Counted from the stretch's first letter, positions 1 through 35,610 are shown. The stretch: DNA of 64,000 bases from Naegleria gruberi (GCA_000004985.1 GG738916.1); one strand, 5' to 3'. Numbers and translations: made by a program. The notes: generated by a model from the letters alone, not told the origin.

Positions 1-311
1 GAACCCAAACCCAAACCCAAACCCAAACCCAAACCCAAACCCAAACCCAAACCCAAACCCAAACCCAAACCCAAACCCAAACCCAAACCCAAACCCAAAC
101 CCAAACCCAAACCCAAACCCAAACCCAAACCCAAACCCAACCCAAACCCAAACCCAAACCCAAACCCAAACCCAAACCCAAACCCAAACCCAAACCCAAA
201 CCCAAACCCAAACCCAAACCCAAACCCAAAACCAACCAAACCCAAACCCAAACCCAAACCCAAACCCAAACCCAAACCCAAACCCAAACCCAAACCCAAA
301 CCCAAACCCAA
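1..311 (+). repeat. Telomere-type hexamer array (CCCAAA)n on top strand = (TTTGGG)n, about 50 units with a few variant units (CCCAA near 137-150, CCAAAACCAACCAAA near 225-240). Runs off the window start.
   Basis: Perfect 6-nt periodicity read directly. The C-rich strand is 5'-3' at the left edge, as expected for a left chromosome end. Confidence 0.9.
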
Positions 312-861
312 CTCAACTTTGAAATTTCAGACCCAACAGGGTAAAAATCTTTATGTTTTAAGCAGTGCCTTATAACTTTTTCTAGACTTTATATTTTTCA
401 AATATTTTTATGATTATAGTCAACTCATATGTGTATCTATCATATTTGAAATGATTGTGTTCCAAGTCATACTTATTACTAAGAAATGAAAAATAAAAGT
501 TAAACACTAGTTTTCAGAGTTGATTTTCTGAATAAGTACAGTGAATTAAAATTCCATTTCTTTTTTATTATATAGTGCACAACGTCTAGTATGATATTGG
601 TAAAAGTCAATTTTCAACAATTGGACAACTAAATTTGGGTAATGGATTTACCCTACAGTCTCCCAAACCCAAACCCATTTCATATCATAAGAATCAGAAA
701 TGGTACCATGGGAATGTAAATATTGATTTTACAAAGAGGTATTTAAAGATGGACAGGTCAGACAAAGTCTATCAAAAACATCACTTCAATCAACAAATTA
801 TACATGTAAATGCTCCATTCGATGTGTAGAGATTGAATATCAAGTTTATTTTAACTTTCAT

Positions 862-3800: not shown

Positions 3801-4885
3801 NNNNNNNNNNNNNNNNNNNNNNNNNNNNNNNNNNNNNNNNNNNNNNNNNNNNNNNNNNNNNNNNNNNNNNNNNNNNNNNNNNNNNNNNNNNNNNNNNNNN
3901 NNNNNNNNNNNNNNNNNNNNNNNNNNNNNNNNNNNNNNNNNNNNNNNNNNNNNNNNNNNNNNNNNNNNNNNNNNNNNNNNNNNNNNNNNNNNNNNNNNNN
4001 NNNNNNNNNNNNNNNNNNNNNNNNNNNNNNNNNNNNNNNNNNNNNNNNNNNNNNNNNNNNNNNNNNNNNNNNNNNNNNNNNNNNNNNNNNNNNNNNNNNN
4101 NNNNNNNNNNNNNNNNNNNNNNNNNNNNNNNNNNNNNNNNNNNNNNNNNNNNNNNNNNNNNNNNNNNNNNNNNNNNNNNNNNNNNNNNNNNNNNNNNNNN
4201 NNNNNNNNNNNNNNNNNNNNNNNNNNNNNNNNNNNNNNNNNNNNNNNNNNNNNNNNNNNNNNNNNNNNNNNNNNNNNNNNNNNNNNNNNNNNNNNNNNNN
4301 NNNNNNNNNNNNNNNNNNNNNNNNNNNNNNNNNNNNNNNNNNNNNNNNNNNNNNNNNNNNNNNNNNNNNNNNNNNNNNNNNNNNNNNNNNNNNNNNNNNN
4401 NNNNNNNNNNNNNNNNNNNNNNNNNNNNNNNNNNNNNNNNNNNNNNNNNNNNNNNNNNNNNNNNNNNNNNNNNNNNNNNNNNNNNNNNNNNNNNNNNNNN
4501 NNNNNNNNNNNNNNNNNNNNNNNNNNNNNNNNNNNNNNNNNNNNNNNNNNNNNNNNNNNNNNNNNNNNNNNNNNNNNNNNNNNNNNNNNNNNNNNNNNNN
4601 NNNNNNNNNNNNNNNNNNNNNNNNNNNNNNNNNNNNNNNNNNNNNNNNNNNNNNNNNNNNNNNNNNNNNNNNNNNNNNNNNNNNNNNNNNNNNNNNNNNN
4701 NNNNNNNNNNNNNNNNNNNNNNNNNNNNNNNNNNNNNNNNNNNNNNNNNNNNNNNNNNNNNNNNNNNNNNNNNNNNNNNNNNNNNNNNNNNNNNNNNNNN
4801 NNNNNNNNNNNNNNNNNNNNNNNNNNNNNNNNNNNNNNNNNNNNNNNNNNNNNNNNNNNNNNNNNNNNNNNNNNNNNNNNNNNNN
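862..4885. other. N-run (4024 nt): assembly gap or masked sequence
   Basis: Continuous n characters. ORF-track 'proteins' consisting of X across it are artefacts. Confidence 0.95.
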
Positions 4886-6186
4886 TTGAGTTTGCTTCCT
4901 GTTTGATTTTCAGGAAACTTCTAGCTGCTCTCAAATCCAACACTAAAATTCCAGTATCTCCAATGATATTATAATATGCTTCATGCTTTTTGAATAGTTC
5001 TTCCTTATTAGAAACGTCACATCTCAAACTTCTTTGATATTCCCAATAAACTTCTCTAGCCAATGAACCAATGTAATAAGGAATACTGCCTGGAGTTTGA
5101 TCTTCCAAATTAGATCCCCAATCATCTCTAATTTCATGATCATCAAGAATCATTTGATTACTGACTTGACTCAAAATATTTCTAGTTGCAATATGATTCC
5201 AATTGAATCTGTGATACTTTCTGAACTCTTCCTTAATGAGTTCTTCTTCCTCTTCACTAACCTTATTTCTTGAATTGCAAATTTTCACTGCTTCATCAAA
5301 TGCATTATGTCCATAATCTAATAAATCATTAAATATGAATTTTGTCAATTAAGGAGTAAAATAACATACCAGCATATATTTGATCTCCAATATGAAGAAG
5401 AACATCTGTGTTATCAATTTGTTCATTCATTCTTTCCCAAGTATCTTTTTCAGGTTCTCTCTTTTCAATAAAATTGCAACTCACACAATTAATGGTCAAC
5501 TTGTGAGATGAATCTGGAATTTGAGCTAATTTTTCTTCATCAATCATTGTCTTGATAATTCCAACACGAGTTTCACTATTACAAATGTTAGTAAACTCAA
5601 CTCTATAAACAGTGTCAGGTTTCAATCCATCTAACTGAAATACGAAAGGAATATTCGATTTTTCAATGGAAACTGTTTTTTGGAAACAAATGCCTTGTTT
5701 CTTCATTTTCATGAGTGAATTATTCAATACTTTCGAATGAGCACTGTTAGATTTCTTCTTGAAAAACGAATCCTCAACACTGAAATGACTTCTCTCACAA
5801 ACTCCAAAAACTTCCATGTTTAAATGAATAGGTTTCGAACACTCGACCAAAATTCTTGCACTTCTACTTGTAACTGTACCAATTACAGGACCAACTGTCA
5901 TGAATGCATTGTCATGTAATTCAGAAATTGCTCTATTTTGATTTGTGGCAATATCATTAAATGGTTGACTTGGGATGGCTTCAAGAATAAGTTCAATACT
6001 TCCTGATTTAGCATCGATCAAAGGAAATGTTCTTCTTAATGACTTTCCAACCTTTAAATTTAATCCAAAAAATTGAAGCATTACAAATCCAAGAACTGTT
6101 GCAAATTAAAAATGTAAAATATGTAAATATTTAAAAACTTTACCTTCATCTTTCATGATGGAATTCTTATCCACTACTCTCACCAT
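4886..6186 (-). CDS. PhoD-like metallophosphatase (alkaline phosphatase D family), partial; both ends run into N-runs. Visible exons 4886..5317 and 5370..6095; a possible 5' exon 6144..6186 behind a 48-nt intron.
   Basis: Translation contains HIGDQIYA..DYGHNAFDE and ..MILDDHEIRDDWGS (GDxIY and DDHE motifs of PhoD-type phosphatases). One GT-AG intron (gtatgtt...ttattag, 52 nt, 5318-5369) restores the frame between the two ORF-track pieces. Confidence 0.7.
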
Positions 6187-9100
6187 NNNNNNNNNNNNNN
6201 NNNNNNNNNNNNNNNNNNNNNNNNNNNNNNNNNNNNNNNNNNNNNNNNNNNNNNNNNNNNNNNNNNNNNNNNNNNNNNNNNNNNNNNNNNNNNNNNNNNN
6301 NNNNNNNNNNNNNNNNNNNNNNNNNNNNNNNNNNNNNNNNNNNNNNNNNNNNNNNNNNNNNNNNNNNNNNNNNNNNNNNNNNNNNNNNNNNNNNNNNNNN
6401 NNNNNNNNNNNNNNNNNNNNNNNNNNNNNNNNNNNNNNNNNNNNNNNNNNNNNNNNNNNNNNNNNNNNNNNNNNNNNNNNNNNNNNNNNNNNNNNNNNNN
6501 NNNNNNNNNNNNNNNNNNNNNNNNNNNNNNNNNNNNNNNNNNNNNNNNNNNNNNNNNNNNNNNNNNNNNNNNNNNNNNNNNNNNNNNNNNNNNNNNNNNN
6601 NNNNNNNNNNNNNNNNNNNNNNNNNNNNNNNNNNNNNNNNNNNNNNNNNNNNNNNNNNNNNNNNNNNNNNNNNNNNNNNNNNNNNNNNNNNNNNNNNNNN
6701 NNNNNNNNNNNNNNNNNNNNNNNNNNNNNNNNNNNNNNNNNNNNNNNNNNNNNNNNNNNNNNNNNNNNNNNNNNNNNNNNNNNNNNNNNNNNNNNNNNNN
6801 NNNNNNNNNNNNNNNNNNNNNNNNNNNNNNNNNNNNNNNNNNNNNNNNNNNNNNNNNNNNNNNNNNNNNNNNNNNNNNNNNNNNNNNNNNNNNNNNNNNN
6901 NNNNNNNNNNNNNNNNNNNNNNNNNNNNNNNNNNNNNNNNNNNNNNNNNNNNNNNNNNNNNNNNNNNNNNNNNNNNNNNNNNNNNNNNNNNNNNNNNNNN
7001 NNNNNNNNNNNNNNNNNNNNNNNNNNNNNNNNNNNNNNNNNNNNNNNNNNNNNNNNNNNNNNNNNNNNNNNNNNNNNNNNNNNNNNNNNNNNNNNNNNNN
7101 NNNNNNNNNNNNNNNNNNNNNNNNNNNNNNNNNNNNNNNNNNNNNNNNNNNNNNNNNNNNNNNNNNNNNNNNNNNNNNNNNNNNNNNNNNNNNNNNNNNN
7201 NNNNNNNNNNNNNNNNNNNNNNNNNNNNNNNNNNNNNNNNNNNNNNNNNNNNNNNNNNNNNNNNNNNNNNNNNNNNNNNNNNNNNNNNNNNNNNNNNNNN
7301 NNNNNNNNNNNNNNNNNNNNNNNNNNNNNNNNNNNNNNNNNNNNNNNNNNNNNNNNNNNNNNNNNNNNNNNNNNNNNNNNNNNNNNNNNNNNNNNNNNNN
7401 NNNNNNNNNNNNNNNNNNNNNNNNNNNNNNNNNNNNNNNNNNNNNNNNNNNNNNNNNNNNNNNNNNNNNNNNNNNNNNNNNNNNNNNNNNNNNNNNNNNN
7501 NNNNNNNNNNNNNNNNNNNNNNNNNNNNNNNNNNNNNNNNNNNNNNNNNNNNNNNNNNNNNNNNNNNNNNNNNNNNNNNNNNNNNNNNNNNNNNNNNNNN
7601 NNNNNNNNNNNNNNNNNNNNNNNNNNNNNNNNNNNNNNNNNNNNNNNNNNNNNNNNNNNNNNNNNNNNNNNNNNNNNNNNNNNNNNNNNNNNNNNNNNNN
7701 NNNNNNNNNNNNNNNNNNNNNNNNNNNNNNNNNNNNNNNNNNNNNNNNNNNNNNNNNNNNNNNNNNNNNNNNNNNNNNNNNNNNNNNNNNNNNNNNNNNN
7801 NNNNNNNNNNNNNNNNNNNNNNNNNNNNNNNNNNNNNNNNNNNNNNNNNNNNNNNNNNNNNNNNNNNNNNNNNNNNNNNNNNNNNNNNNNNNNNNNNNNN
7901 NNNNNNNNNNNNNNNNNNNNNNNNNNNNNNNNNNNNNNNNNNNNNNNNNNNNNNNNNNNNNNNNNNNNNNNNNNNNNNNNNNNNNNNNNNNNNNNNNNNN
8001 NNNNNNNNNNNNNNNNNNNNNNNNNNNNNNNNNNNNNNNNNNNNNNNNNNNNNNNNNNNNNNNNNNNNNNNNNNNNNNNNNNNNNNNNNNNNNNNNNNNN
8101 NNNNNNNNNNNNNNNNNNNNNNNNNNNNNNNNNNNNNNNNNNNNNNNNNNNNNNNNNNNNNNNNNNNNNNNNNNNNNNNNNNNNNNNNNNNNNNNNNNNN
8201 NNNNNNNNNNNNNNNNNNNNNNNNNNNNNNNNNNNNNNNNNNNNNNNNNNNNNNNNNNNNNNNNNNNNNNNNNNNNNNNNNNNNNNNNNNNNNNNNNNNN
8301 NNNNNNNNNNNNNNNNNNNNNNNNNNNNNNNNNNNNNNNNNNNNNNNNNNNNNNNNNNNNNNNNNNNNNNNNNNNNNNNNNNNNNNNNNNNNNNNNNNNN
8401 NNNNNNNNNNNNNNNNNNNNNNNNNNNNNNNNNNNNNNNNNNNNNNNNNNNNNNNNNNNNNNNNNNNNNNNNNNNNNNNNNNNNNNNNNNNNNNNNNNNN
8501 NNNNNNNNNNNNNNNNNNNNNNNNNNNNNNNNNNNNNNNNNNNNNNNNNNNNNNNNNNNNNNNNNNNNNNNNNNNNNNNNNNNNNNNNNNNNNNNNNNNN
8601 NNNNNNNNNNNNNNNNNNNNNNNNNNNNNNNNNNNNNNNNNNNNNNNNNNNNNNNNNNNNNNNNNNNNNNNNNNNNNNNNNNNNNNNNNNNNNNNNNNNN
8701 NNNNNNNNNNNNNNNNNNNNNNNNNNNNNNNNNNNNNNNNNNNNNNNNNNNNNNNNNNNNNNNNNNNNNNNNNNNNNNNNNNNNNNNNNNNNNNNNNNNN
8801 NNNNNNNNNNNNNNNNNNNNNNNNNNNNNNNNNNNNNNNNNNNNNNNNNNNNNNNNNNNNNNNNNNNNNNNNNNNNNNNNNNNNNNNNNNNNNNNNNNNN
8901 NNNNNNNNNNNNNNNNNNNNNNNNNNNNNNNNNNNNNNNNNNNNNNNNNNNNNNNNNNNNNNNNNNNNNNNNNNNNNNNNNNNNNNNNNNNNNNNNNNNN
9001 NNNNNNNNNNNNNNNNNNNNNNNNNNNNNNNNNNNNNNNNNNNNNNNNNNNNNNNNNNNNNNNNNNNNNNNNNNNNNNNNNNNNNNNNNNNNNNNNNNNN

Positions 9101-9990
9101 NNNNNNNNNNNNNNNNNNNNNNNNNNNNNNNNNNNNNNNNNNNNNNNNNNNNNNNNNNNNNNNNNNNNNNNNNNNNNNNNNNNNNNNNNNNNNNNNNNNN
9201 NNNNNNNNNNNNNNNNNNNNNNNNNNNNNNNNNNNNNNNNNNNNNNNNNNNNNNNNNNNNNNNNNNNNNNNNNNNNNNNNNNNNNNNNNNNNNNNNNNNN
9301 NNNNNNNNNNNNNNNNNNNNNNNNNNNNNNNNNNNNNNNNNNNNNNNNNNNNNNNNNNNNNNNNNNNNNNNNNNNNNNNNNNNNNNNNNNNNNNNNNNNN
9401 NNNNNNNNNNNNNNNNNNNNNNNNNNNNNNNNNNNNNNNNNNNNNNNNNNNNNNNNNNNNNNNNNNNNNNNNNNNNNNNNNNNNNNNNNNNNNNNNNNNN
9501 NNNNNNNNNNNNNNNNNNNNNNNNNNNNNNNNNNNNNNNNNNNNNNNNNNNNNNNNNNNNNNNNNNNNNNNNNNNNNNNNNNNNNNNNNNNNNNNNNNNN
9601 NNNNNNNNNNNNNNNNNNNNNNNNNNNNNNNNNNNNNNNNNNNNNNNNNNNNNNNNNNNNNNNNNNNNNNNNNNNNNNNNNNNNNNNNNNNNNNNNNNNN
9701 NNNNNNNNNNNNNNNNNNNNNNNNNNNNNNNNNNNNNNNNNNNNNNNNNNNNNNNNNNNNNNNNNNNNNNNNNNNNNNNNNNNNNNNNNNNNNNNNNNNN
9801 NNNNNNNNNNNNNNNNNNNNNNNNNNNNNNNNNNNNNNNNNNNNNNNNNNNNNNNNNNNNNNNNNNNNNNNNNNNNNNNNNNNNNNNNNNNNNNNNNNNN
9901 NNNNNNNNNNNNNNNNNNNNNNNNNNNNNNNNNNNNNNNNNNNNNNNNNNNNNNNNNNNNNNNNNNNNNNNNNNNNNNNNNNNNNNNNNN
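6187..9990. other. N-run (3804 nt): assembly gap or masked sequence
   Basis: Continuous n characters. Confidence 0.95.
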
Positions 9991-10495
9991 TATTTTTCAA
10001 GCAAGGACGTACAGTAAATGAAAATTAAGGTCAATTCGGATAGATTTCGCATCGCTAAGAAAACCGTACATGTTTATGACTGTAGAGCTAATGGAGATGG
10101 ATTAATTTAGAAATTGGCGCCAACTTTTGAAATAATTTAAACATTGCAGGTATTACAGTTTAATTTTAACGGTCATCAATAGGTGTAAAACATATCCTTG
10201 TCGTGAAGCTGGAAGACTAGCGTCTTGTTAGCCAAGGAAATATTAAAGAATAAGTAGTTCAGTAGCCAGTTGTAAATTCTATTCGATTTTGTATTAATTC
10301 TTTACACTTGTCTGAAATTGCAACATTTCTGTTGATTTTATTGTGAACATGGAGCCCTTAAGAGGAATTTGGGAAATACCTTGATTTCTTTCATGTCACA
10401 TTTCAACACAATATGGCATCAAACAGTGAGGCATGAAATCCAGATTTTAAGCTGGTTGGACTCAATCCACACACCAACTAAAAAAACTTCAAAAC

Positions 10496-12739
10496 ATGCC
10501 AACAACATCAACTCCTCACAAACGATATTCCACCTCCTTGATTTCTACTGAACTATTTCTTCTAACGATTGCTTGTTTCATTATTCTTCTTTGCTTCACA
10601 TGCAATACAATTGCCAACACAACCAAGAGCTCTTCACAATATTCTTCCCGCCTTTTAACCAAGCAACACATCAGCAACAAGAATAAAAAATTACATCAAC
10701 AACAAGATATTGCACCACATGCTTCCTCCATCACACCACAGGAAGCGCTAGACCTTTCAGCACCACCACTCAAATGTTTNNNNNNNNNNNNNNNNNNNNN
10801 NNNNNNNNNNNNNNNNNNNNNNNNNNNNNGTGTTTACGTGTATGGAAGATTGGTATTTTCTACTTCGTCCAAAGTTGTTGTCTTCAATTCAGCCCAAGCA
10901 ATTCTTCTCACCCAACAAGAACTCGAGGAGTTTACCATTGTGAATGTTCGAGATTTGCTGCTGAATATTGTTTCATTGGATAAGAGTCAGGTATTATCTG
11001 CCGTTCAATCACTAAAGAAGAAATTGAACAAGGCAGATGTGGACGATTATGTCCATCTATCCAGTTCCTACTTGGCAACCTCTCGTAGACAACAACCCAA
11101 GCGACCAACATCATTGGAAGAGGATGATTTGGTTGTATCCATCTCTGAAGGTTTATTGAACATGTCCATTCCTCTCTTGGACCAAGTTAGAACCAATACA
11201 ATCAATGATACCAATGTGTTGAGAGGTGTTGCTAGTGATATTCTCAACTGTTCATCCATATTGTTGGGTTCTGGTTTGAGTGTGAATGCTAGTGCAATAA
11301 GAAGAAATTCACACAACTCTAATATTAGGAATACCATCTATTCATCAGCATCATTGCTCTCACTTATTAGAGCACTCGAATCAACAACAACAACAATCAA
11401 GGTAGAAAATAGTGCTTTCAATTTAATTGTTTCTCATCAGCCAGACATGCAACTTGGTGAGACTCAAGTCCAAGTGCCATCATCTCTTCTCTCCAGTGAC
11501 AATATTGATTTCACACTCGTTACCTATTCTAGTGGGATCGACTTTGAATTGCTACCAGATAGTAATACCACTGGTTTACGTTCTGCTGCCAATATTGTAG
11601 AGCTGAGAAGATTAGTTGATGGTGAATATGATCCTCTTAGTGAGTTACAAAATCCAATAATACTCTCCTTTCCATTTTTCAACAACCTTACAATATTTAA
11701 CAGCAATTTTACACAAAATTTCACTTGCCGATACTATAATACAACAACCAGTGGATGGAGGACAAATGGATGTAAATTGGTCGGCAAGGATGACAAGTTT
11801 ATTACTTGCTCTTGTGATCATACAACAAGCTTTTCAGCATTTGTGGAATATTATCCAATAACAACAGATCCAACAACAGATCCCAACAATCCTACAAACT
11901 CAACAAGTCCTACCAACAAGAACACTGCTCTCAAGGCATTGGATAGTGGTCTGGTCATTTTCAAGATTGTCATTTCTGGTATTCTACTTTTGCTGATAGT
12001 ATCTGTAATGGTTGGTCTTATCATTTTCAGAAAGATGCAACCTGTGAAAAGCAGATACATCTTCCCATTTGTTGGATTGATTGCCCTGTTTGTTGATTTG
12101 GCATTTACTGGTATTGCTTCTAAAGCAGCTACTATTAATGTGCCACTCGATGAGCTAGTCTCTAGCAATAACACTCCAAACATTATCAATAGTATTAGCT
12201 TGGTTGTAACAACAAGTTTGACTGCTGTGGCTATTTGCTCTTACATGGTAGTGTGTATTAGATATATAATGTACAGATACTACTATCAGTGGATGTCGGC
12301 AGTAATTTCTCAAAAGTTAGAAAAGGCAACTAGTAGAGGAATTCGTCTTTTCAAGAATAATACCATCCTATTGGTGTCTGTATTTGCATTGGGTATTTCT
12401 ATTATTGCTTACTTTGTTATGCTTGTTATTTTGAGAAGAACTGACCAAATGAATGCAAAACAATTCTCCTATTCCTCATCAATTTCTCACTTTTTGATCA
12501 TGATAAGCTTCTTGATAGTGATTGGTATTGTTTATATGATTGATTTGATAATGGATTTCAGAACCAGACAAATTTCTGATGAGTTGCACGACATTTCCAA
12601 TGAAATTAATTCTACACAACAAAACACTAAAGGAACAATGGTGACCACTTTTAAGAAGGAAAATACTGCTTTTGTTGCATCTGCCAAATTGAAGCAATTA
12701 TTTGGAAAGAATAGTGCTCCATCTAAAATCTATCACTAA
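10496..12739 (+). CDS. GPS-motif (GAIN-type) multipass membrane receptor, adhesion-GPCR-like; contains a 50-nt N gap at 10780-10829.
   Basis: CRYYNTTTSGWRTNGCKLVGKDDKFITCSCDHTTSFSAFV fits the GPS pattern C-x-C-x-H-x-T-x-F-A-V. It is followed immediately by several long hydrophobic helices (LVIFKIVISGILLLLIVSVMVGLIIF, IFPFVGLIALFVDLAFTGIA, ...). N-terminal signal/anchor, with an N/S/T-rich ectodomain. Confidence 0.6.
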   Translation: MPTTSTPHKRYSTSLISTELFLLTIACFIILLCFTCNTIANTTKSSSQYSSRLLTKQHISNKNKKLHQQQDIAPHASSITPQEALDLSAPPLKCXXXXXXXXXXXXXXXXXXVYVYGRLVFSTSSKVVVFNSAQAILLTQQELEEFTIVNVRDLLLNIVSLDKSQVLSAVQSLKKKLNKADVDDYVHLSSSYLATSRRQQPKRPTSLEEDDLVVSISEGLLNMSIPLLDQVRTNTINDTNVLRGVASDILNCSSILLGSGLSVNASAIRRNSHNSNIRNTIYSSASLLSLIRALESTTTTIKVENSAFNLIVSHQPDMQLGETQVQVPSSLLSSDNIDFTLVTYSSGIDFELLPDSNTTGLRSAANIVELRRLVDGEYDPLSELQNPIILSFPFFNNLTIFNSNFTQNFTCRYYNTTTSGWRTNGCKLVGKDDKFITCSCDHTTSFSAFVEYYPITTDPTTDPNNPTNSTSPTNKNTALKALDSGLVIFKIVISGILLLLIVSVMVGLIIFRKMQPVKSRYIFPFVGLIALFVDLAFTGIASKAATINVPLDELVSSNNTPNIINSISLVVTTSLTAVAICSYMVVCIRYIMYRYYYQWMSAVISQKLEKATSRGIRLFKNNTILLVSVFALGISIIAYFVMLVILRRTDQMNAKQFSYSSSISHFLIMISFLIVIGIVYMIDLIMDFRTRQISDELHDISNEINSTQQNTKGTMVTTFKKENTAFVASAKLKQLFGKNSAPSKIYH

Positions 12740-13210
12740 ATTATTCAATTCAAAATATTTTTTTAACAAGCCTTGTTTCTTCAACATCAGTTTATTTTTC
12801 ACCATATTAACTCAAGAATGTTAGATAACCACTCGATTGGAAATTAATCGAGGAATCCAATTTAATGCTCATGTTCATCAAATTATTTCAAATTTTTTAA
12901 CAAGCCTTTGAAAATTATTGTTCACTCATAATTATCACCAAATCAGAAAATTGATCAATTAGTTCTTTCACAATCTCCATTTTTGAGTGACTACATACTC
13001 ATTTGGATAAGGATGTACGATTTGCTTACATTTTACAGACAGCAAACCTTCTATTTGTGAACAACATGAACAATTAAAATCGAATAAATAGTAGTAGCGC
13101 TCAACAACAGAGTTTCTTCCACTGATACAAAAAAAACAAACAATAACATGATTCACCTTAATGAATCTAACAATCATCAATACATTCATTGTATGAATTT
13201 CATTGAATAA

Positions 13211-15718
13211 NNNNNNNNNNNNNNNNNNNNNNNNNNNNNNNNNNNNNNNNNNNNNNNNNNNNNNNNNNNNNNNNNNNNNNNNNNNNNNNNNNNNNNNNNN
13301 NNNNNNNNNNNNNNNNNNNNNNNNNNNNNNNNNNNNNNNNNNNNNNNNNNNNNNNNNNNNNNNNNNNNNNNNNNNNNNNNNNNNNNNNNNNNNNNNNNNN
13401 NNNNNNNNNNNNNNNNNNNNNNNNNNNNNNNNNNNNNNNNNNNNNNNNNNNNNNNNNNNNNNNNNNNNNNNNNNNNNNNNNNNNNNNNNNNNNNNNNNNN
13501 NNNNNNNNNNNNNNNNNNNNNNNNNNNNNNNNNNNNNNNNNNNNNNNNNNNNNNNNNNNNNNNNNNNNNNNNNNNNNNNNNNNNNNNNNNNNNNNNNNNN
13601 NNNNNNNNNNNNNNNNNNNNNNNNNNNNNNNNNNNNNNNNNNNNNNNNNNNNNNNNNNNNNNNNNNNNNNNNNNNNNNNNNNNNNNNNNNNNNNNNNNNN
13701 NNNNNNNNNNNNNNNNNNNNNNNNNNNNNNNNNNNNNNNNNNNNNNNNNNNNNNNNNNNNNNNNNNNNNNNNNNNNNNNNNNNNNNNNNNNNNNNNNNNN
13801 NNNNNNNNNNNNNNNNNNNNNNNNNNNNNNNNNNNNNNNNNNNNNNNNNNNNNNNNNNNNNNNNNNNNNNNNNNNNNNNNNNNNNNNNNNNNNNNNNNNN
13901 NNNNNNNNNNNNNNNNNNNNNNNNNNNNNNNNNNNNNNNNNNNNNNNNNNNNNNNNNNNNNNNNNNNNNNNNNNNNNNNNNNNNNNNNNNNNNNNNNNNN
14001 NNNNNNNNNNNNNNNNNNNNNNNNNNNNNNNNNNNNNNNNNNNNNNNNNNNNNNNNNNNNNNNNNNNNNNNNNNNNNNNNNNNNNNNNNNNNNNNNNNNN
14101 NNNNNNNNNNNNNNNNNNNNNNNNNNNNNNNNNNNNNNNNNNNNNNNNNNNNNNNNNNNNNNNNNNNNNNNNNNNNNNNNNNNNNNNNNNNNNNNNNNNN
14201 NNNNNNNNNNNNNNNNNNNNNNNNNNNNNNNNNNNNNNNNNNNNNNNNNNNNNNNNNNNNNNNNNNNNNNNNNNNNNNNNNNNNNNNNNNNNNNNNNNNN
14301 NNNNNNNNNNNNNNNNNNNNNNNNNNNNNNNNNNNNNNNNNNNNNNNNNNNNNNNNNNNNNNNNNNNNNNNNNNNNNNNNNNNNNNNNNNNNNNNNNNNN
14401 NNNNNNNNNNNNNNNNNNNNNNNNNNNNNNNNNNNNNNNNNNNNNNNNNNNNNNNNNNNNNNNNNNNNNNNNNNNNNNNNNNNNNNNNNNNNNNNNNNNN
14501 NNNNNNNNNNNNNNNNNNNNNNNNNNNNNNNNNNNNNNNNNNNNNNNNNNNNNNNNNNNNNNNNNNNNNNNNNNNNNNNNNNNNNNNNNNNNNNNNNNNN
14601 NNNNNNNNNNNNNNNNNNNNNNNNNNNNNNNNNNNNNNNNNNNNNNNNNNNNNNNNNNNNNNNNNNNNNNNNNNNNNNNNNNNNNNNNNNNNNNNNNNNN
14701 NNNNNNNNNNNNNNNNNNNNNNNNNNNNNNNNNNNNNNNNNNNNNNNNNNNNNNNNNNNNNNNNNNNNNNNNNNNNNNNNNNNNNNNNNNNNNNNNNNNN
14801 NNNNNNNNNNNNNNNNNNNNNNNNNNNNNNNNNNNNNNNNNNNNNNNNNNNNNNNNNNNNNNNNNNNNNNNNNNNNNNNNNNNNNNNNNNNNNNNNNNNN
14901 NNNNNNNNNNNNNNNNNNNNNNNNNNNNNNNNNNNNNNNNNNNNNNNNNNNNNNNNNNNNNNNNNNNNNNNNNNNNNNNNNNNNNNNNNNNNNNNNNNNN
15001 NNNNNNNNNNNNNNNNNNNNNNNNNNNNNNNNNNNNNNNNNNNNNNNNNNNNNNNNNNNNNNNNNNNNNNNNNNNNNNNNNNNNNNNNNNNNNNNNNNNN
15101 NNNNNNNNNNNNNNNNNNNNNNNNNNNNNNNNNNNNNNNNNNNNNNNNNNNNNNNNNNNNNNNNNNNNNNNNNNNNNNNNNNNNNNNNNNNNNNNNNNNN
15201 NNNNNNNNNNNNNNNNNNNNNNNNNNNNNNNNNNNNNNNNNNNNNNNNNNNNNNNNNNNNNNNNNNNNNNNNNNNNNNNNNNNNNNNNNNNNNNNNNNNN
15301 NNNNNNNNNNNNNNNNNNNNNNNNNNNNNNNNNNNNNNNNNNNNNNNNNNNNNNNNNNNNNNNNNNNNNNNNNNNNNNNNNNNNNNNNNNNNNNNNNNNN
15401 NNNNNNNNNNNNNNNNNNNNNNNNNNNNNNNNNNNNNNNNNNNNNNNNNNNNNNNNNNNNNNNNNNNNNNNNNNNNNNNNNNNNNNNNNNNNNNNNNNNN
15501 NNNNNNNNNNNNNNNNNNNNNNNNNNNNNNNNNNNNNNNNNNNNNNNNNNNNNNNNNNNNNNNNNNNNNNNNNNNNNNNNNNNNNNNNNNNNNNNNNNNN
15601 NNNNNNNNNNNNNNNNNNNNNNNNNNNNNNNNNNNNNNNNNNNNNNNNNNNNNNNNNNNNNNNNNNNNNNNNNNNNNNNNNNNNNNNNNNNNNNNNNNNN
15701 NNNNNNNNNNNNNNNNNN
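13211..15718. other. N-run (2508 nt): gap immediately upstream of the internal telomere-type array
   Basis: Continuous n characters. Confidence 0.95.
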
Positions 15719-16190
15719 CCCAAACCCAAACCCAAACCCAAACCCAAACCCAAACCCAAACCCAAACCCAAACCCAAACCCAAACCCAAACCCAAACCCA
15801 AACCCAAACCCAAACCCAAACCCAAACCCAAACCCAAACCCAAACCCAAACCCAAACCCAAACCCAAACCCAAACCCAAACCCAAACCCAAACCCAAACC
15901 CAACCCCAACCCAAACCCAAACCCAAACCCAAACCCAAACCCAAACCCAACCCAAACCCAAACCCAAACCCAAACCCAAACCCAAACCCAAACCCAAACC
16001 CAAACCCAAACCCAAACCCAAACCCAAACCCAAACCCAAACCCAAACCCAAACCCAAACCCAAACCCAAACCCAAACCCAAACCCAAACCCAAACCCAAA
16101 CCCAAACCCAAACCCAAACCCAAACCCAAACCCAAACCCAAACCCAAACCCAAACCCAAACCCAAACCCAAACCCAAACCCAAACCCAAA
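15719..16190 (+). repeat. Interstitial telomere-type array (CCCAAA)n, about 78 units, same orientation as the terminal array; unit irregularities at ~15901 and ~15950.
   Basis: Direct read. The irregular units cause the PN/QT/PK and GL/VW/GF phase changes seen in the ORF track. Confidence 0.9.
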
Positions 16191-16197
16191 CCTGATA

Positions 16198-17043
16198 ATG
16201 ATTGGATCAAATCAAACGTATTTTTATTTCATTTTCAAGGATATGACTATTGTAGTGTATAATCATGAGAGAAATCTTGTGCAAGTAATTGATTTTTGTA
16301 AGGAAAGCGAGAAGGAAATTATTGACATATCTCGAGGTTGTACTGGAGATTGTGCCTATATTCTCACTAGGAAGCAAGATGAGTATGAACTATTGGTGGA
16401 GAAGGATGGTTGTATTGGTAAAGCAGAGATCGGCGATTTGGTAGGTCAACTGAATAATGTGAGATTTCTATCAAAATATGCTGTAGTCACAAATGATAAT
16501 AAGATTTACATTTTGGCCATGATTATTTCTCACAACCAAGGATTTAAATATAGGGAAACAACCTTTGAAAACAAATCACAAATCATACAATTGGAAAGCG
16601 GATTTGATCACTGTGTCGTTCTCACACAAGATGGAAAAGTTTATGCAATGGGAATCAATCAATATTCTCAATGTGGAATGCTTCCAGATCAATCGAATAT
16701 TGTTAGACAATTTGTTGAAATTATTCCACCAACAATGTATCATTCAAGAGTGTTGCGGATTGGATGTGGATCTACTTATACTGCTCTTCTTACAGAAAGT
16801 CATATTCTTATAGTTGGTAGATTTACTGGAAGTACAGGAACTGTGTGTAAGAATAGAATAGTCCATGCAGGTAATGGAACGCCATGGCTTGTTTCTAAAA
16901 ACTTATTTGGAATTAATGATATTTATTGTGCTGGATGGCATTTATGTGCTATTCAAACAACAGAAATCAATAAGGAAAGACTTTTTGCAAGATTGTTAAA
17001 TAATTCTCAATGGTTTTCAGATGTAGAAATTTTACTAACTTGA
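16198..17043 (+). CDS. RCC1-repeat (regulator of chromosome condensation-like) beta-propeller protein. The start may instead be the Met at 16244.
   Basis: Repeated motifs [26 protein letters not shown] and [19 protein letters not shown] are typical of RCC1 blades. The ORF begins 8 bp after the repeat array. Confidence 0.5.
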
Positions 17044-17280
17044 TGATATACTAATTTTAGAAGAAACACATGGATTTTTACCAAATATTGGTTAATGTTT
17101 AGTGTAATGAACTAATTAACCAAACCTGTGAATAATATTGAAATTTGGAAGTTCTATACATCAGTCAACTTAAACAATTGACTGATCTAAATATTAATGG
17201 AAATAATATTGGACATGAATGATAATCAGTGAAATTGGTGATGAAGGAGTTTTGAGTATTTCAGAAAAATACCACAATAA

Positions 17281-18379
17281 TTACATTATAAAACACCTTT
17301 TGCTTGGTTTAATTTCTTGCAGAAGTGCTGAATCTTTGGAAATTACGTTTTGTAAAATTGGCAAACTATCAACTCTATAAAATCTCTCCATTCTTACACC
17401 TTCCTCAAATATCAAATTAATATTTTCTCCTTTTTTGGCACTACTTTCCACAATACTTGTATTCAACAGTGAAAATTCCTTAATAATTAAATTAATTTCC
17501 TTTTTGAACTCGTTCAAAGTTTCGTCTCTATTTGTTTCCAATAAATCAACCTTATTAATTACAAATACAATAGGTGTATCATTCACTGGTCTTTCCTTAA
17601 TCTTGATGATGTATTCCACTCTGTGTCTGAGTGCCTTCACTGTTTCCAAATTATCCACAGAACAAACAGCAACAAAACAGTTTCCAAATGTTGTATAATT
17701 CTGTTTAAAAGCCTCAAAATCTTGATTACCAGCTAATGATTTCACAATTTCAAATCAATCATCTCATTAAATACCTACCTGTATCCATAATTTCCAATAA
17801 AGCAACTCGGTTATCCACCTGTGCTACTTTCCTATACGAATCTTCTATCGTAGGATCATATCTGAATCCAATTTAATCTATCAATGTGTAAATAACAACA
17901 TACAGATCCACAAAGATATTCACAACATAAAAAATAGTGAGAGCTGATTTTCCAACTCCCTCCTCTCCAATCACCACCATTCTATATTCCTCAGCTGCAC
18001 CATTCTTTGCATTCTTTAAAGTACCTTTCACCGTTTGAAATTTAATAAATCTGGCAAGGATAACTTTTCTCCGCAATTCTCCTCTCTTCATCAAATCAAT
18101 TTTAATTAATTCCAAATCATGAAGTGATTTCCTAGATATTGACCCCTGACATTCGTAAACTCTCCACCAAAAATCATTGAAATAATCTTGCATTTCCTTC
18201 GAGTGAGAAATCTTTTTGGAAAGTGATTGAAAATTGGCTATAAAAACAATATCGGAATGAGTTTCATGTTTTGATCGGAATAGTTTTGGATCAATTGCAA
18301 AGGAGAGAATGTGCTGATAAATTTCTGGAGGTAATGATGAAAAATTGGCCAAGAAATTAAACGGTTGTTTGATTGACAT
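17281..18379 (-). CDS. Ras-family small GTPase with an N-terminal ~130-aa F-box-like extension. Three exons: 18379..17904, 17861..17779, 17732..17281; introns of 42 and 46 nt.
   Basis: G-domain reconstructed across two GT-AG introns: ..[28 protein letters not shown]|[27 protein letters not shown]|[27 protein letters not shown]. This aligns residue-for-residue with Ras ([38 protein letters not shown], NKxD, SAK, CaaX). N-terminal [19 protein letters not shown] matches the F-box consensus. True start is the ATG at 18379; the ORF-track start is a TTG. Confidence 0.75.
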
Positions 18380-18495
18380 TTTTTTTGAAATAAAATAAAA
18401 ACAAAAATAATTCAAAATAATTCAAAATAAATTGAAATAGGAATTGAGGAACAATATTTGCAAAATATATGTTTTACCAAAATATAAAATGGAAC

Positions 18496-18567
18496 GGGGA
18501 CCAGTGGGAATCGAACCCACGGCCTCTCGCACCCAAAGCGAGAATCATACCACTAGACCATGGTCCC
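18496..18567 (-). tRNA. tRNA-Pro (anticodon UGG)
   Basis: Reverse-complement gives GGGACCATGGTCTAGTGGTATGATTCTCGCTTTGGGTGCGAGAGGCCGTGGGTTCGATTCCCACTGGTCCCC. Anticodon stem CTCGC/GCGAG with loop TTTGGGT (anticodon TGG, G37). T-arm GTGGGTTCGATTCCCAC. Acceptor GGGACCA/TGGTCCC. C73 discriminator as expected for Pro. Confidence 0.85.
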
Positions 18568-18638
18568 TTACATTAAAATAACTTAACATCTGTTGGTGGT
18601 GAGCTAGAACTCAAATTGGCTCTTATTTCTGCAGTCTT

Positions 18639-20549
18639 TTACAACATTTTTGAAACATGATAACCCAGTGCAAATAAACCCCATACCAGTATCACTATTT
18701 GAGACCACAACTGTATTTCCAAATACAGTGTCATTGTAATTGTTGATAACAAACTCAACAAGCAACCAACTAAGGGAGCATCCTTATATTTCCTCTTTTT
18801 TATCAGCATAAATGGCATGATAATGAACAAGAATGAAAGAAGGAGAAGAAGATATNNNNNNNNNNNNNNNNNNNNNNNNNNNNNNNNNNNNNNNNNNNNN
18901 NNNNNNNNNNNNNNNNNNNNNNNNNNNNNNNNNNNNNNNNNNNNNNNNNNNNNNNNNNNNNNNNNNNNNNNNNNNNNNNNNNNNNNNNNNNNNNNNNNNN
19001 NNNNNNNNNNNNNNNNNNNNNNNNNNNNNNNNNNNNNNNNNNNNNNNNNNNNNNNNNNNNNNNNNNNNNNNNNNNNNNNNNNNNNNNNNNNNNNNNNNNN
19101 NNNNNNNNNNNNNNNNNNNNNNNNNNNNNNNNNNNNNNNNNNNNNNNNNNNNNNNNNNNNNNNNNNNNNNNNNNNNNNNNNNNNNNNNNNNNNNNNNNNN
19201 NNNNNNNNNNNNNNNNNNNNNNNNNNNNNNNNNNNNNNNNNNNNNNNNNNNNNNNNNNNNNNNNNNNNNNNNNNNNNNNNNNNNNNNNNNNNNNNNNNNN
19301 NNNNNNNNNNNNNNNNNNNNNNNNNNNNNNNNNNNNNNNNNNNNNNNNNNNNNNNNNNNNNNNNNNNNNNNNNNNNNNNNNNNNNNNNNNNNNNNNNNNN
19401 NNNNNNNNNNNNNNNNNNNNNNNNNNNNNNNNNNNNNNNNNNNNNNNNNNNNNNNNNNNNNNNNNNNNNNNNNNNNNNNNNNNNNNNNNNNNNNNNNNNN
19501 NNNNNNNNNNNNNNNNNNNNNNNNNNNNNNNNNNNNNNNNNNNNNNNNNNNNNNNNNNNNNNNNNNNNNNNNNNNNNNNNNNNNNNNNNNNNNNNNNNNN
19601 NNNNNNNNNNNNNNNNNNNNNNNNNNNNNNNNNNNNNNNNNNNNNNNNNNNNNNNNNNNNNNNNNNNNNNNNNNNNNNNNNNNNNNNNNNNNNNNNNNNN
19701 NNNNNNNNNNNNNNNNNNNNNNNNNNNNNNNNNNNNNNNNNNNNNNNNNNNNNNNNNNNNNNNNNNNNNNNNNNNNNNNNNNNNNNNNNNNNNNNNNNNN
19801 NNNNNNNNNNNNNNNNNNNNNNNNNNNNNNNNNNNNNNNNNNNNNNNNNNNNNNNNNNNNNNNNNNNNNNNNNNNNNNNNNNNNNNNNNNNNNNNNNNNN
19901 NNNNNNNNNNNNNNNNNNNNNNNNNNNNNNNNNNNNNNNNNNNNNNNNNNNNNNNNNNNNNNNNNNNNNNNNNNNNNNNNNNNNNNNNNNNNNNNNNNNN
20001 NNNNNNNNNNNNNNNNNNNNNNNNNNNNNNNNNNNNNNNNNNNNNNNNNNNNNNNNNNNNNNNNNNNNNNNNNNNNNNNNNNNNNNNNNNNNNNNNNNNN
20101 NNNNNNNNNNNNNNNNNNNNNNNNNNNNNNNNNNNNNNNNNNNNNNNNNNNNNNNNNNNNNNNNNNNNNNNNNNNNNNNNNNNNNNNNNNNNNNNNNNNN
20201 NNNNNNNNNNNNNNNNNNNNNNNNNNNNNNNNNNNNNNNNNNNNNNNNNNNNNNNNNNNNNNNNNNNNNNNNNNNNNNNNNNNNNNNNNNNNNNNNNNNN
20301 NNNNNNNNNNNNNNNNNNNNNNNNNNNNNNNNNNNNNNNNNNNNNNNNNNNNNNNNNNNNNNNNNNNNNNNNNNNNNNNNNNNNNNNNNNNNNNNNNNNN
20401 NNNNNNNNNTGATCGGCAGTTTTTGAAATTTCTTCTAATTGTTCATTGAAAATATATCCCATTAGATACAAGAGTTGACCTAAAAGTGTTGATTTACCAC
20501 TGCCTGATTGCCCGATCAGTGAAATGGTGTGGGTTGGCTTATCGAGCAT
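18639..20549 (-). CDS. Probable ABCG-type half transporter (N-terminal nucleotide-binding domain, C-terminal membrane domain); middle hidden by the 1564-nt N-run at 18846-20409.
   Basis: The N-terminal visible part has Walker A LIGQSGSGKSTLLGQ. The C-terminal visible part ends in a hydrophobic helix (VILVWGLFALGYHV). Whether the two pieces are one gene cannot be verified through the gap. Confidence 0.4.
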   Translation of the reverse strand: MLDKPTHTISLIGQSGSGKSTLLGQLLYLMGYIFNEQLEEISKTADXXXXXXXXXXXXXXXXXXXXXXXXXXXXXXXXXXXXXXXXXXXXXXXXXXXXXXXXXXXXXXXXXXXXXXXXXXXXXXXXXXXXXXXXXXXXXXXXXXXXXXXXXXXXXXXXXXXXXXXXXXXXXXXXXXXXXXXXXXXXXXXXXXXXXXXXXXXXXXXXXXXXXXXXXXXXXXXXXXXXXXXXXXXXXXXXXXXXXXXXXXXXXXXXXXXXXXXXXXXXXXXXXXXXXXXXXXXXXXXXXXXXXXXXXXXXXXXXXXXXXXXXXXXXXXXXXXXXXXXXXXXXXXXXXXXXXXXXXXXXXXXXXXXXXXXXXXXXXXXXXXXXXXXXXXXXXXXXXXXXXXXXXXXXXXXXXXXXXXXXXXXXXXXXXXXXXXXXXXXXXXXXXXXXXXXXXXXXXXXXXXXXXXXXXXXXXXXXXXXXXXXXXXXXXXXXXXXXXXXXXXXXXXXXXXXXXXXXXXXXXXXXXXXXXXXXXXXXXXXXXXXXXXXXXXXXXXXXXXXXXXXXXXXXXXXXXXXXXXXYLLLLLSFLFIIMPFMLIKKRKYKDAPLVGCLLSLLSTITMTLYLEIQLWSQIVILVWGLFALGYHVSKML

Positions 20550-21802: not shown

Positions 21803-21873
21803 CTCGAGTGCCGGGAATTGAACCCGGGTCGCCAGAGTGACAGTCTGGAATGCTACCACTATACCACACCCGA
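21803..21873 (-). tRNA. tRNA-Asp (anticodon GUC)
   Basis: Reverse-complement TCGGGTGTGGTATAGTGGTAGCATTCCAGACTGTCACTCTGGCGACCCGGGTTCAATTCCCGGCACTCGAG. Anticodon stem CCAGA/TCTGG with loop CTGTCAC (GTC). T-arm CCGGGTTCAATTCCCGG. Closely parallels animal tRNA-Asp. A T5 run follows the 3' end (Pol III terminator). Confidence 0.85.
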
Positions 21874-29585: not shown

Positions 29586-30725
29586 ATGACCAAGAATAAT
29601 TCTTCCGAAGATATTACTGAATATTATGATGATCCAACTATTTTGAATGAAAAATTGGATGAATTGGCCCAATTGCTCCAATCATCAAAACATGTTGTCT
29701 TTTATACAGGTGCTGGTATTAGTACTTCTGCAGGTATTTCTGATTTTAGAGGACCTAATGGTATTTGGACAATGAAAGAGAAGGGAATGAAGGCAAAAGC
29801 TTCTTCATCAACTATTAAGCTCCCAACTCCAACTCACATGGCCATTGCAACATTGTATCAGAGAGGAATGATCAAGTATGTGACTAGTCAGAATGTGGAT
29901 GGTTTGCATGTGAAATCTGGATTTAGTAGAAAGGATATTTCAGAATTGCACGGAAATACCAATGTTGAGCTATGTAAAAATTGTAATTGTGAATATTTGA
30001 GAACTTTTAGATGTAGAAATGCAGAACATGTGCATGATCACAAGACTGGAAGAATGTGTGAACATTGTGGACATGAATTGGAGGATAGTATTATCAATTT
30101 TGGAGAAAATTTACCTGAAGATCAATTGGATAGAGCAGAATTGAATGCCAAGAAGGCAGATTTGGCCATCGTTTTGGGAACCTCATTGAGAGTGAGCCCA
30201 GCATGTGACTTGCCTGAAATGTGTTTAAAGAAGGGAGGTAAAATGGTGATTGTAAACTTGCAAAAGACTCCAAAGGATAAAAAGTCATCACTGAGAATTT
30301 TTGCCAAGACTGACGATGTCATTAATGGAATAATGGAAAGATTATCACTCTCCATTCCATCCTATGTATTGAAATCAGAATTTACTCTTGGAGCTACTGA
30401 AAAGGAAGAAAAATCAATATTTGGAAATATTAGAAGAAAGATTGGAGTTTCATTGACCTCACCAATTAAGGGTGCTAGAATATTGTCAGAACTGGAAATG
30501 AGATTGGTATGTGAAAAGAAGATTTTAAAGTATACCACTCCAACTATTGATGAAATTCCACAAGATTGTAAAAAGGTAGTAGCCAGATTGAGCTTTAATT
30601 TAGATCCAAAATTTGGCAAGGAAGCTGAATGTGAATTGGTGTTGGACAATCCACATTCATCAAAGACATTCTTCATCAATGTCGATACTTCTGATAATTC
30701 AGTGCAAGTAACTGAAGCTTTGTAA
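29586..30725 (+). CDS. NAD-dependent protein deacylase, sirtuin class IV (SIRT6/7-like)
   Basis: VVFYTGAGISTSAGISDFRGPNGIWT and HGNTNVELCKNCN..C (zinc ribbon) and GTSLRVSPA are sirtuin catalytic-core motifs. Confidence 0.85.
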   Translation: MTKNNSSEDITEYYDDPTILNEKLDELAQLLQSSKHVVFYTGAGISTSAGISDFRGPNGIWTMKEKGMKAKASSSTIKLPTPTHMAIATLYQRGMIKYVTSQNVDGLHVKSGFSRKDISELHGNTNVELCKNCNCEYLRTFRCRNAEHVHDHKTGRMCEHCGHELEDSIINFGENLPEDQLDRAELNAKKADLAIVLGTSLRVSPACDLPEMCLKKGGKMVIVNLQKTPKDKKSSLRIFAKTDDVINGIMERLSLSIPSYVLKSEFTLGATEKEEKSIFGNIRRKIGVSLTSPIKGARILSELEMRLVCEKKILKYTTPTIDEIPQDCKKVVARLSFNLDPKFGKEAECELVLDNPHSSKTFFINVDTSDNSVQVTEAL

Positions 30726-35100: not shown

Positions 35101-35389
35101 CTTGTTGGGGATGTGATTTGTTTTTTTTCTTCAATCATTTCAATGTAAAAGTTGAAATGTGGAAAGTTAAAGTTCCAGATTAGAATAACCGTACATTGCG
35201 GCCTTAGAAAACCGCTCCAAATTAGTAAGATTCAATGATTGAACATGATTGAATGGCTTAGCACAGCATGTGTCTCCGCCAAGTTTTTAACTTGAGGAAA
35301 ACTAAGGAAGTCTTTGAATTTCAATGCTATTAAAAATAGCAGTGTTAAGAGAGAGCAGTACTTCAAAGAAAGAGATTAAAATGCTAAAA

Positions 35390-35477: not shown

Positions 35478-35610
35478 TTACGAAGATTTTATATACAACA
35501 TTTTATGTCGATGTTATGTTCTTTAGAAAATCTACAACCACCTTCATCAATCCACCAATAATTATTTTCAAATGTTGGTTGTAGTGGAATGACTTGTTGG
35601 ATAAAATTTA

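What the first reader, a model, noticed from the sequence alone, without database searches (positions are those of the whole stretch)
13211..16190. Second telomere-type array 15.7 kb inside the scaffold, same orientation, abutting a gap
The array at 15719-16190 (~78 units) has the same polarity as the terminal one, so it cannot be the opposite telomere of a short chromosome. Either it is a genuine interstitial telomeric sequence (a fusion or healing scar). Or the scaffolder joined two independent chromosome-end contigs head-to-tail across the 2.5-kb N-run, which would make region 1-13210 a different subtelomere from region 16191 onward. A predicted gene (RCC1-like) starts only 8 bp after the array.
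Basis: seen in the sequence. Interest (0 to 1): 0.5.

Follow-up and report, generated by a model that had tools for sequence, protein, structure and literature searches.

The report
Telomere cap on a truncated gene copy
The internal telomere array in this Naegleria gruberi scaffold is fused into the middle of a gene whose intact copy exists elsewhere, so it most likely marks a broken, telomere-healed version of this chromosome end that the assembler folded into the full-length version.

Summary
A 474-bp (CCCAAA)79 array lies at 15719-16192, directly after a 2508-N gap, with the polarity of the terminal array at 2-311. The window is Naegleria gruberi NEG-M, whose candidate telomere repeat is TTTGGG.

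- An independent 8.6-kb contig from a close relative (L001, 98-99% identical) runs from the GPS-motif gene left of the gap to the Ras gene right of the array. It contains no telomere repeat. Its anchor spacing (2983 bp) matches gap plus array (2982 bp). The two flanks are therefore true neighbours, not unrelated chromosome ends.
- Homology stops exactly at 16193, inside codon 171 of a 453-aa RCC1-like gene. The "gene start" 8 bp after the array is internal Met173.
- The intact gene (XP_002668736.1) sits on a separate 18,443-bp scaffold of the same assembly.

Best reading (about 0.55): the sequenced DNA held a full-length chromosome end and a copy broken in this gene and capped by new telomere repeats. 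The assembler kept the capped contig, and mate pairs from intact molecules placed it. Main rival: a chimeric clone (about 0.25). A true interstitial insertion is unlikely (about 0.1). The mechanism is well known, so interest is modest.

The parts
2..311 (+). Terminal telomere array of the scaffold, (CCCAAA)n with 52 copies. Its inner part is slightly degenerate (CCCAAAA CCAA CCAAA), and a 12-bp relic lies at 662-673.
10143..13210 (+). Left flank of the gap. It holds the GPS-motif protein gene (ORF 10496-12739; XP_002670327.1 / NAEGRDRAFT_74608). It is colinear with L001 1-3459.
13211..15718 (.). Scaffold gap of 2508 N. In the related contig L001 the matching stretch is ordinary unique sequence followed by the first 511 bp of the RCC1-like coding sequence.
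15719..16192 (+). Internal telomere-type array, (CCCAAA)79. It starts at the contig edge and is perfect for the 40 units nearest the junction. Its polarity is that of a telomere capping the sequence to its right.
16191..16200 (+). Junction. Homology to the intact gene begins at 16193, the second base of codon 171. Window reads ...CCCAAACC|TGATAATG; L001 reads ...GAGAAATT|TGATAATG.
16193..17043 (+). 5'-truncated copy of the RCC1-like gene. It covers codons 171-453 plus the stop of XP_002668736.1 / NAEGRDRAFT_76344 and retains the RCC1 repeats. It lacks 511 bp of coding sequence and the promoter, and it is not annotated on this scaffold.
17281..18415 (-). Ras-family GTPase gene with short intron(s) (XP_002670370.1). 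It is the right-hand neighbour both here and in L001.

Best explanation
The sequenced N. gruberi NEG-M DNA contained two versions of this chromosome end. The full-length version runs GPS-motif gene, about 2.5 kb of spacer, intact 453-aa RCC1-like gene, Ras gene, and extends about 16 kb further out to the terminal telomere at window position 1. The second version was broken inside the RCC1-like gene (codon 171, window 16193). It was stabilised by TTTGGG repeats added directly to the broken end, i.e. chromosome healing, presumably by telomerase. It could be one homologue or a subclone of the culture.

The two versions are identical to the right of 16193 and differ to the left, which gave the assembler a fork. 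The contig at 15719-18855 kept the telomere-bearing left end. The intact left extension, carrying the whole gene, ended up on a separate 18,443-bp scaffold. Mate pairs from intact molecules placed the telomere-bearing contig at its true distance from the GPS contig. On this reading the array is a real telomere of a shorter molecule, not an interstitial tract of the long one.

Shown here: the junction lies inside a coding sequence; an intact copy exists in the same assembly; the flanks are adjacent, at matching spacing, in an independent contig. Inferred: that the truncated form exists in cells, that it is allelic or subclonal, and that telomerase added the repeats.
For: 1. Organism and repeat. 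The Sir2 ORF is 100% identical to N. gruberi XP_002670331.1 on a 245,038-bp record. TTTGGG is the candidate N. gruberi telomere repeat (PMC3622300).
2. Truncated gene. ORF 16198-17043 equals the C-terminal 281 aa of the 453-aa XP_002668736.1. The first ~170 residues are encoded nowhere in the window.
3. Intact copy. That protein is recorded on one record only, of 18,443 bp. The flanking GPS and Ras proteins are recorded on the 245,038-bp scaffold, with consecutive UniProt accessions D2VZT2 and D2VZT3.
4. Independent contig. L001 (ENA ERZ929261, 98.4-99.0% identical) carries GPS gene, spacer, full RCC1-like gene, Ras gene. It has no CCCAAA unit at all.
5. Spacing. The anchors are 2983 bp apart in L001 and 2982 bp apart in the window (2508 N + 474 bp of array).
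6. Junction. Homology ends exactly at the array edge. The repeats next to the junction are perfect, and no subtelomeric sequence intervenes.
7. Polarity. The array is oriented as a telomere capping the right-hand sequence.
8. Copy number. The gene has a single homologue cluster among 5.8 billion proteins, so it is not a multi-copy subtelomeric family.
9. Precedent. Telomere repeats fused into truncated coding regions without subtelomeric elements are the stated hallmark of telomere healing in cultured P. falciparum (PMC5550746).
10. Assembly quality. 64% of 1-16192 is gap, against 3.4% of 16193-64000 (computed). This fits reduced or split read support for the distal segment.
Against: - No reads, read depths or clone-mate data could be examined, so the number of clones supporting the junction is unknown. 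A single chimeric clone could produce the same contig.
- The DNA of the 18,443-bp scaffold could not be fetched. The fork model, and the allelic rather than paralogous status of the intact copy, are therefore inferred from protein records only.
- Gap estimates in this assembly can be poor. The 50-N gap at 10780-10829 corresponds to 380 bp in L001. The near-exact spacing match is suggestive, not decisive.
- Measured against L001, the retained end (...CATTATCA-3' on the G-rich strand) has no G/T seed. The junction microhomology in NEG-M itself (0-5 nt) is undetermined.
- Terminal position was not shown, because the array abuts a gap.
- The junction sequence was not found in any other dataset.
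Confidence: 0.55

Rival explanations
1. Cloning or assembly artefact. One chimeric shotgun clone ligated a telomeric fragment to a sheared fragment that began inside the RCC1-like gene. Its unmatched overhang blocked the merge with the intact contig. The assembly was left with a telomere-tipped contig plus a separate scaffold carrying the intact gene. No truncated chromosome exists in cells.
For: The array begins at a contig edge next to a gap, and its 474 bp would fit inside one Sanger read. The intact gene exists in the same assembly. The spacing shows that spanning clones lack the array. There is no evident G/T seed at the junction relative to L001. The junction was not found elsewhere.
Against: Telomeric DNA is a tiny fraction of the genome, so a chimera with a telomere fragment in the biologically correct orientation is a rare event (inference). 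The junction has every hallmark of healing. A single discordant read would normally be out-voted rather than define the contig end (general knowledge of overlap assemblers, not tested).
Confidence: 0.25
2. Genuine interstitial telomeric sequence. Telomere repeats were inserted at a repaired double-strand break inside the RCC1-like gene on one homologue. The chromosome continues to the left of the array with the gene's 5' part.
For: The scaffold places the array 15.7 kb inside. The left edge is hidden by the gap, so continuation cannot be excluded. Many genome assemblies contain internal telomeric blocks (PMC3622300).
Against: Gap plus array (2982 bp) equals the repeat-free spacing in L001 (2983 bp). 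An insertion would need a gap about 474 bp longer. The relative has no repeats there. Seventy-nine near-perfect units are far more than break-repair insertions usually contain (general knowledge). If the left flank were present, a 474-bp array could have been bridged by reads and mate pairs.
Confidence: 0.1
3. Mis-scaffolding of two different chromosome ends. In its only surviving form, a recent paralogous copy of the RCC1-Ras segment sits at another chromosome end and was collapsed with the internal locus.
For: The array has telomere polarity, and the scaffold is heavily gapped over its first 20 kb. Contiguity of 1-10142 with the rest was not independently verified.
Against: The immediate flanks are true neighbours in an independent contig with the same gene order and spacing. 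Only one Ras protein and one full RCC1-like protein are recorded for N. gruberi, and the RCC1-like gene has no other homologue. A paralogue would have to be near-identical over at least 2.6 kb.
Confidence: 0.08

Closest known systems
Telomere healing (de novo telomere addition) at subtelomeric breaks in cultured Plasmodium falciparum (Calhoun et al. 2017, PMC5550746)
   Same: [quoted passage not shown] No subtelomeric repeat elements intervene. The event lies near a chromosome end in a long-cultured clonal protist and deletes the distal genes.
   Different: In this case the full-length version co-exists in the same DNA preparation. Terminal position and telomerase involvement were not shown. 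Seed complementarity at the junction is unknown. The organism is a heterolobosean with a TTTGGG repeat, in which healing has not been described in the papers searched.
Human terminal deletions stabilised by neotelomeres (e.g. 18q and 22q13; PMC4427916 and PMC3136441, titles and abstract openings only)
   Same: A heterozygous terminal deletion in which one homologue ends in telomere repeats added to unique sequence, while the other homologue is intact.
   Different: Those cases were proven by breakpoint cloning from patients. The present evidence comes only from an assembly.
Interstitial telomeric sequences (ITS)
   Same: Telomere-type repeats at an internal coordinate of an assembled sequence.
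   Different: An ITS has chromosomal DNA on both sides on one molecule. In this case the left side is a gap, a close relative lacks the array, and the spacing leaves no room for an insertion. Repeat degeneracy, common in old ITS, is absent.
Programmed chromosome fragmentation with de novo telomere addition (ciliate macronuclei, Ascaris chromatin diminution); from general knowledge, not tested here
   Same: Telomere repeats are added to non-telomeric ends with little or no seed homology. Alternative long and short chromosome forms co-exist.
   Different: No evidence was found for a programme, for recurrence, or for breakage signals. Only one site was seen in 64 kb.

Membership tests
Functional (terminal) telomere | Tandem array of the species' telomere repeat | tested here: met
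   (CCCAAA)79, 98% matches. TTTGGG is the candidate N. gruberi repeat and is identical to the scaffold-terminal array.
Functional (terminal) telomere | G-rich strand runs 5'->3' towards the end, away from the capped sequence | tested here: met
   The C-rich strand reads 5'->3' into 16193 onward. All matches are on the + strand.
Functional (terminal) telomere | Physically terminal on a DNA molecule (Bal31-sensitive, nothing distal) | not testable with these tools
   The array abuts a 2508-N gap. No reads were available.
Chromosome healing / de novo telomere addition | Repeats joined directly to sequence that is internal and non-telomeric in the unbroken version | tested here: met
   The junction is at codon 171 of a gene that is intact in XP_002668736.1 and in L001.
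Chromosome healing / de novo telomere addition | No subtelomeric elements or degenerate repeats between the unique sequence and the array | tested here: met
   Forty perfect units run up to the junction.
Chromosome healing / de novo telomere addition | Distal segment absent from the same molecule (terminal deletion) | not testable with these tools
   This needs long reads, a depth step or a Southern blot. It is indirectly compatible with 64% gaps distal to the junction against 3.4% proximal.
Chromosome healing / de novo telomere addition | Short complementarity between the broken 3' end and the telomerase template | tested here: inconclusive
   Against L001 the retained end is ...CATTATCA with no seed. 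NEG-M's own intact DNA was not obtainable, so 0-5 nt of microhomology remain possible.
Interstitial telomeric sequence | Non-telomeric chromosomal DNA on both sides of the array on one molecule | tested here: inconclusive
   The right flank is seen and the left flank is a gap. The spacing argument (2982 versus 2983 bp) and the absence of repeats in L001 speak against it.
Scaffolding error joining unrelated contigs | The two flanks are not adjacent in the real genome | tested here: not met
   The flanks are adjacent, in the same order, orientation and spacing, on independent contig L001.

The most novel reading that the evidence does not exclude
Naegleria gruberi amoebae may undergo recurrent or regulated breakage of chromosome ends, with seed-independent de novo telomere addition. 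Long and short forms of the same chromosome end would then co-exist in a clonal culture, a ciliate- or Ascaris-like somatic genome plasticity in a heterolobosean. This site would be one sampled instance.
Probability: 0.04. Interest if true: 0.75.

Novelty: new member of a known kind. Interest (0 to 1): 0.33.

Why it matters
If the truncated form is real, three things follow.
- It would be the first sequence-level example of chromosome breakage and telomere healing in a heterolobosean.
- It would be functional support, through de novo addition, that TTTGGG is the Naegleria telomere repeat. So far that repeat is only a candidate inferred from assembly positions (PMC3622300).
- It would show that homologues or subclones of the reference strain NEG-M differ structurally at chromosome ends. 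This bears on the open questions of ploidy and clonality in Naegleria.

There is also a practical consequence. The reference scaffold is wrong at 13211-16192: the gap and array should be replaced by about 2.98 kb of unique sequence that includes the 5' third of NAEGRDRAFT_76344. That gene's 18.4-kb scaffold probably belongs at this position. Internal telomere arrays next to gaps in draft assemblies should be checked for truncated genes before they are called interstitial arrays or misjoins.

Tried and rejected
- Ciliate origin. CCCAAA is one of the Paramecium repeat variants (my own knowledge). This was rejected because the ORFs read in the standard code and the proteins are 100% N. gruberi.
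- Exact-protein look-ups of the 281-aa ORF, the Sir2 ORF, P0121, the GPS ORF and the 250-aa ORF at 5329-6081 found nothing on record. The N. gruberi assembly is evidently not in that index, so the 18,443-bp scaffold's DNA could not be retrieved.
- The Ras ORF look-up returned only the same sample as L001.
- JGI metagenome scans for the telomere-gene junction and for the flank just right of it found nothing.
- The N-terminal 170 residues of the gene were searched for in the window, to test whether the gene model spans the gap. They are absent.
- Similarity between the two post-array sequences (312-861 and 16193-18855), or to anywhere else in the window, was searched for. There is none, so no shared subtelomeric element exists.
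- Literature searches on Naegleria telomeres, TERT or long-read assemblies gave only the Fulneckova et al. candidate repeat. The Fritz-Laylin 2010 genome paper and the supplement of PMC3622300 are not held. The project PRJEB11402 is not mentioned in any held paper.

Full report
**Observation.** The window contains six N runs. One covers 13211-15718 (2508 N). It is followed at once by a CCCAAA array at 15719-16192 with 79.3 copies, 98% matches and TRF score 927. Seventy-six of its units are perfect, and the 40 units nearest the unique sequence are all perfect. A second array of the same repeat and polarity opens the window at 2-311. The 18-mer (CCCAAA)3 matches 112 times, only on the + strand and only inside these two arrays. 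None is expected in shuffled sequence. The description is therefore accurate and far beyond chance.

**Source and repeat identity.**
- The ORFs read through in the standard code and encode eukaryotic signalling proteins (GPS motif, Ras, SET, RGS, Sir2).
- The Sir2 ORF at 29586-30725 is 100% identical over its full length to N. gruberi XP_002670331.1, which is recorded on a 245,038-bp record. The window is thus one end of a scaffold of the N. gruberi NEG-M draft assembly.
- TTTGGG was proposed as the N. gruberi telomere repeat purely from its position in that assembly. The authors note that experimental confirmation is lacking and that many assemblies also show internal blocks (PMC3622300).

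**What lies to the right of the array.**
- ORF 16198-17043 (281 aa, RCC1 repeats) has a single homologue cluster among 5.8 billion proteins: N. gruberi XP_002668736.1 / NAEGRDRAFT_76344.
- That protein is 453 aa long, and the window ORF is exactly its C-terminal 281 residues. The first ~170 residues are encoded nowhere in the window.
The array sits inside a coding sequence.
- XP_002668736.1 is recorded on one record only, of 18,443 bp.
- The two neighbouring proteins are recorded on the 245,038-bp scaffold: GPS-motif XP_002670327.1 (D2VZT2) and Ras XP_002670370.1 (D2VZT3). Their UniProt accessions are consecutive, so nothing is annotated between them there.
- The same assembly thus holds an intact copy of the gene on a small scaffold and an unannotated, telomere-tipped 3' fragment on this scaffold.

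**An independent contig spans the region.**
- The second member of the protein's 90% cluster (P0122, 99% identical) is encoded on an 8,644-bp ENA metagenome contig, L001 (ERZ929261 / ERR1078381).
- L001 carries, in order: the GPS-motif gene, about 2.9 kb of spacer, the complete 453-aa RCC1-like gene, the Ras gene, and the next gene on the minus strand. This is the window's gene order.
- BLASTN gives L001 1088-3456 = window 10830-13208 (99.0%) and L001 6443-8644 = window 16193-18397 (98.4%).
- L001 has no CCCAAA unit anywhere.
- After adjusting for the ragged contig end, L001 has 2983 bp between the anchors. The window has 2982 bp, i.e. 2508 N plus the 474-bp array.
- Homology to L001 stops exactly at the array edge. 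L001 reads ...GAAAAGAGAAATT|TGATAATGATTGG; the window reads ...CCCAAACCCAAACC|TGATAATGATTGG. This places the junction at the second base of codon 171, with 511 bp of coding sequence missing.

**What this excludes.**
- The two sides of the gap are true neighbours, so the scaffolder did not join two unrelated chromosome ends. This holds at least for 10143-13210 against 16193 onward. The more distal 1-10142 depends on two further large gaps and was not verified.
- A simple insertion of repeats into a continuous chromosome is disfavoured. The distance estimated across the gap leaves no room for the array on top of the normal sequence.
- That spacing argument is suggestive rather than decisive. Gap estimates in this assembly can be off by hundreds of bases: the 50-N gap at 10780-10829 corresponds to 380 bp in L001.

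**Best explanation.**
- The read set contained two left-hand continuations of the sequence starting at 16193: the normal one (the rest of the gene) and telomere repeats.
- That fork explains three things. The contig starts with the array. The intact gene assembled separately. Mate pairs from intact molecules placed the telomere-tipped contig at the correct distance.
- The telomere-bearing continuation has the hallmarks of chromosome healing. [quoted passage not shown] They have the polarity that caps the retained side. No subtelomeric or degenerate repeats intervene.
- The same hallmarks were used to call healing events in the P. falciparum 3D7 reference and in cultured clones (PMC5550746).
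- The mechanism I propose is a double-strand break in one homologue, or in a subclone of the long-cultured strain NEG-M. The break is followed by resection and addition of TTTGGG repeats, with loss of the distal ~16 kb from that molecule.
- The heavy gapping of 1-16192 (64% N, against 3.4% beyond) is compatible with reduced or split read support for the distal segment. It has other possible causes.

**Rivals.**
- The serious rival is a chimeric shotgun clone. Its unmatched telomeric overhang would have prevented the contigs from merging. I cannot exclude it without the reads.
- Measured against L001, the retained end has no G/T seed for telomerase. However, NEG-M's own intact sequence at codons 170-171 is unknown, and 0-5 nt of microhomology remain possible.
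- A true interstitial insertion and a near-identical paralogue at another chromosome end remain possible at low probability. The second is weakened because the gene is single-copy in the protein record and no second Ras copy is recorded.

**Comparison with what is known, and novelty.**
- The feature works like classical telomere healing of terminal deletions, as in Plasmodium. Yeast and human neotelomere papers were also listed.
- It differs from an ITS in lacking a demonstrated left flank and any degeneracy.
- In the papers searched, nothing describes healing, or any telomere biology beyond the candidate repeat, in Naegleria.
- It is at most a new instance of a well-known process in a new lineage. 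It may be only an assembly or cloning artefact. Its firm value is as a correction to the reference scaffold and as a pointer to a simple experiment.

**Dead ends.**
- The N. gruberi scaffolds themselves are not retrievable with these tools.
- JGI metagenomes contain neither the junction nor the flank.
- The genome paper and the relevant supplementary table are not held.

Noticed in passing
window 35611-41511 (-): An uninterrupted 1966-aa ORF has a bacterial-type alpha-2-macroglobulin architecture (Big_5, MG2, A2M_BRD, A2M, bMG10). It is a candidate gene of bacterial origin in a Naegleria chromosome end region.
   Followed up: no
window 1-20409: The first 20 kb consist of very small contigs (861, 1301, 789, 2381 and 3137 bp) separated by gaps of 4024, 3804, 50, 2508 and 1554 N. 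The next 44 kb have a single 50-N gap. The separate 18,443-bp scaffold that carries the intact RCC1-like gene is about the size of the span from the first to the last of these gaps. It may interleave with this scaffold, which is speculation.
   Followed up: partly
window 10780-10829 versus L001 708-1087: The 50-N gap corresponds to 380 bp in the related contig. The 50-N runs therefore do not reflect true gap length here.
   Followed up: yes
window 10143-10779 versus L001 1-707: This stretch, upstream and at the 5' end of the GPS-motif gene, is only 95-96% identical to L001. The adjacent 10830-13208 is 99.0% identical. This is a local divergence hotspot between strains.
   Followed up: no
window 662-673: An isolated CCCAAACCCAAA lies 350 bp inside the terminal array. 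It looks like a short subtelomeric relic of telomere repeats. The internal array has nothing comparable on its proximal side.
   Followed up: no
window 18496-18567 (-), 21803-21873 (-), 35388-35478 (-): Three tRNA genes (Pro-TGG, Asp-GTC, Thr-TGT) lie in the subtelomeric 36 kb. The 91-nt tRNA-Thr is long enough to contain an intron.
   Followed up: no
window 29586-30725 (+): A Sir2-family deacetylase gene lies about 30 kb from the chromosome end. N. gruberi has several paralogues of 49-55% identity. The position is probably coincidental.
   Followed up: no
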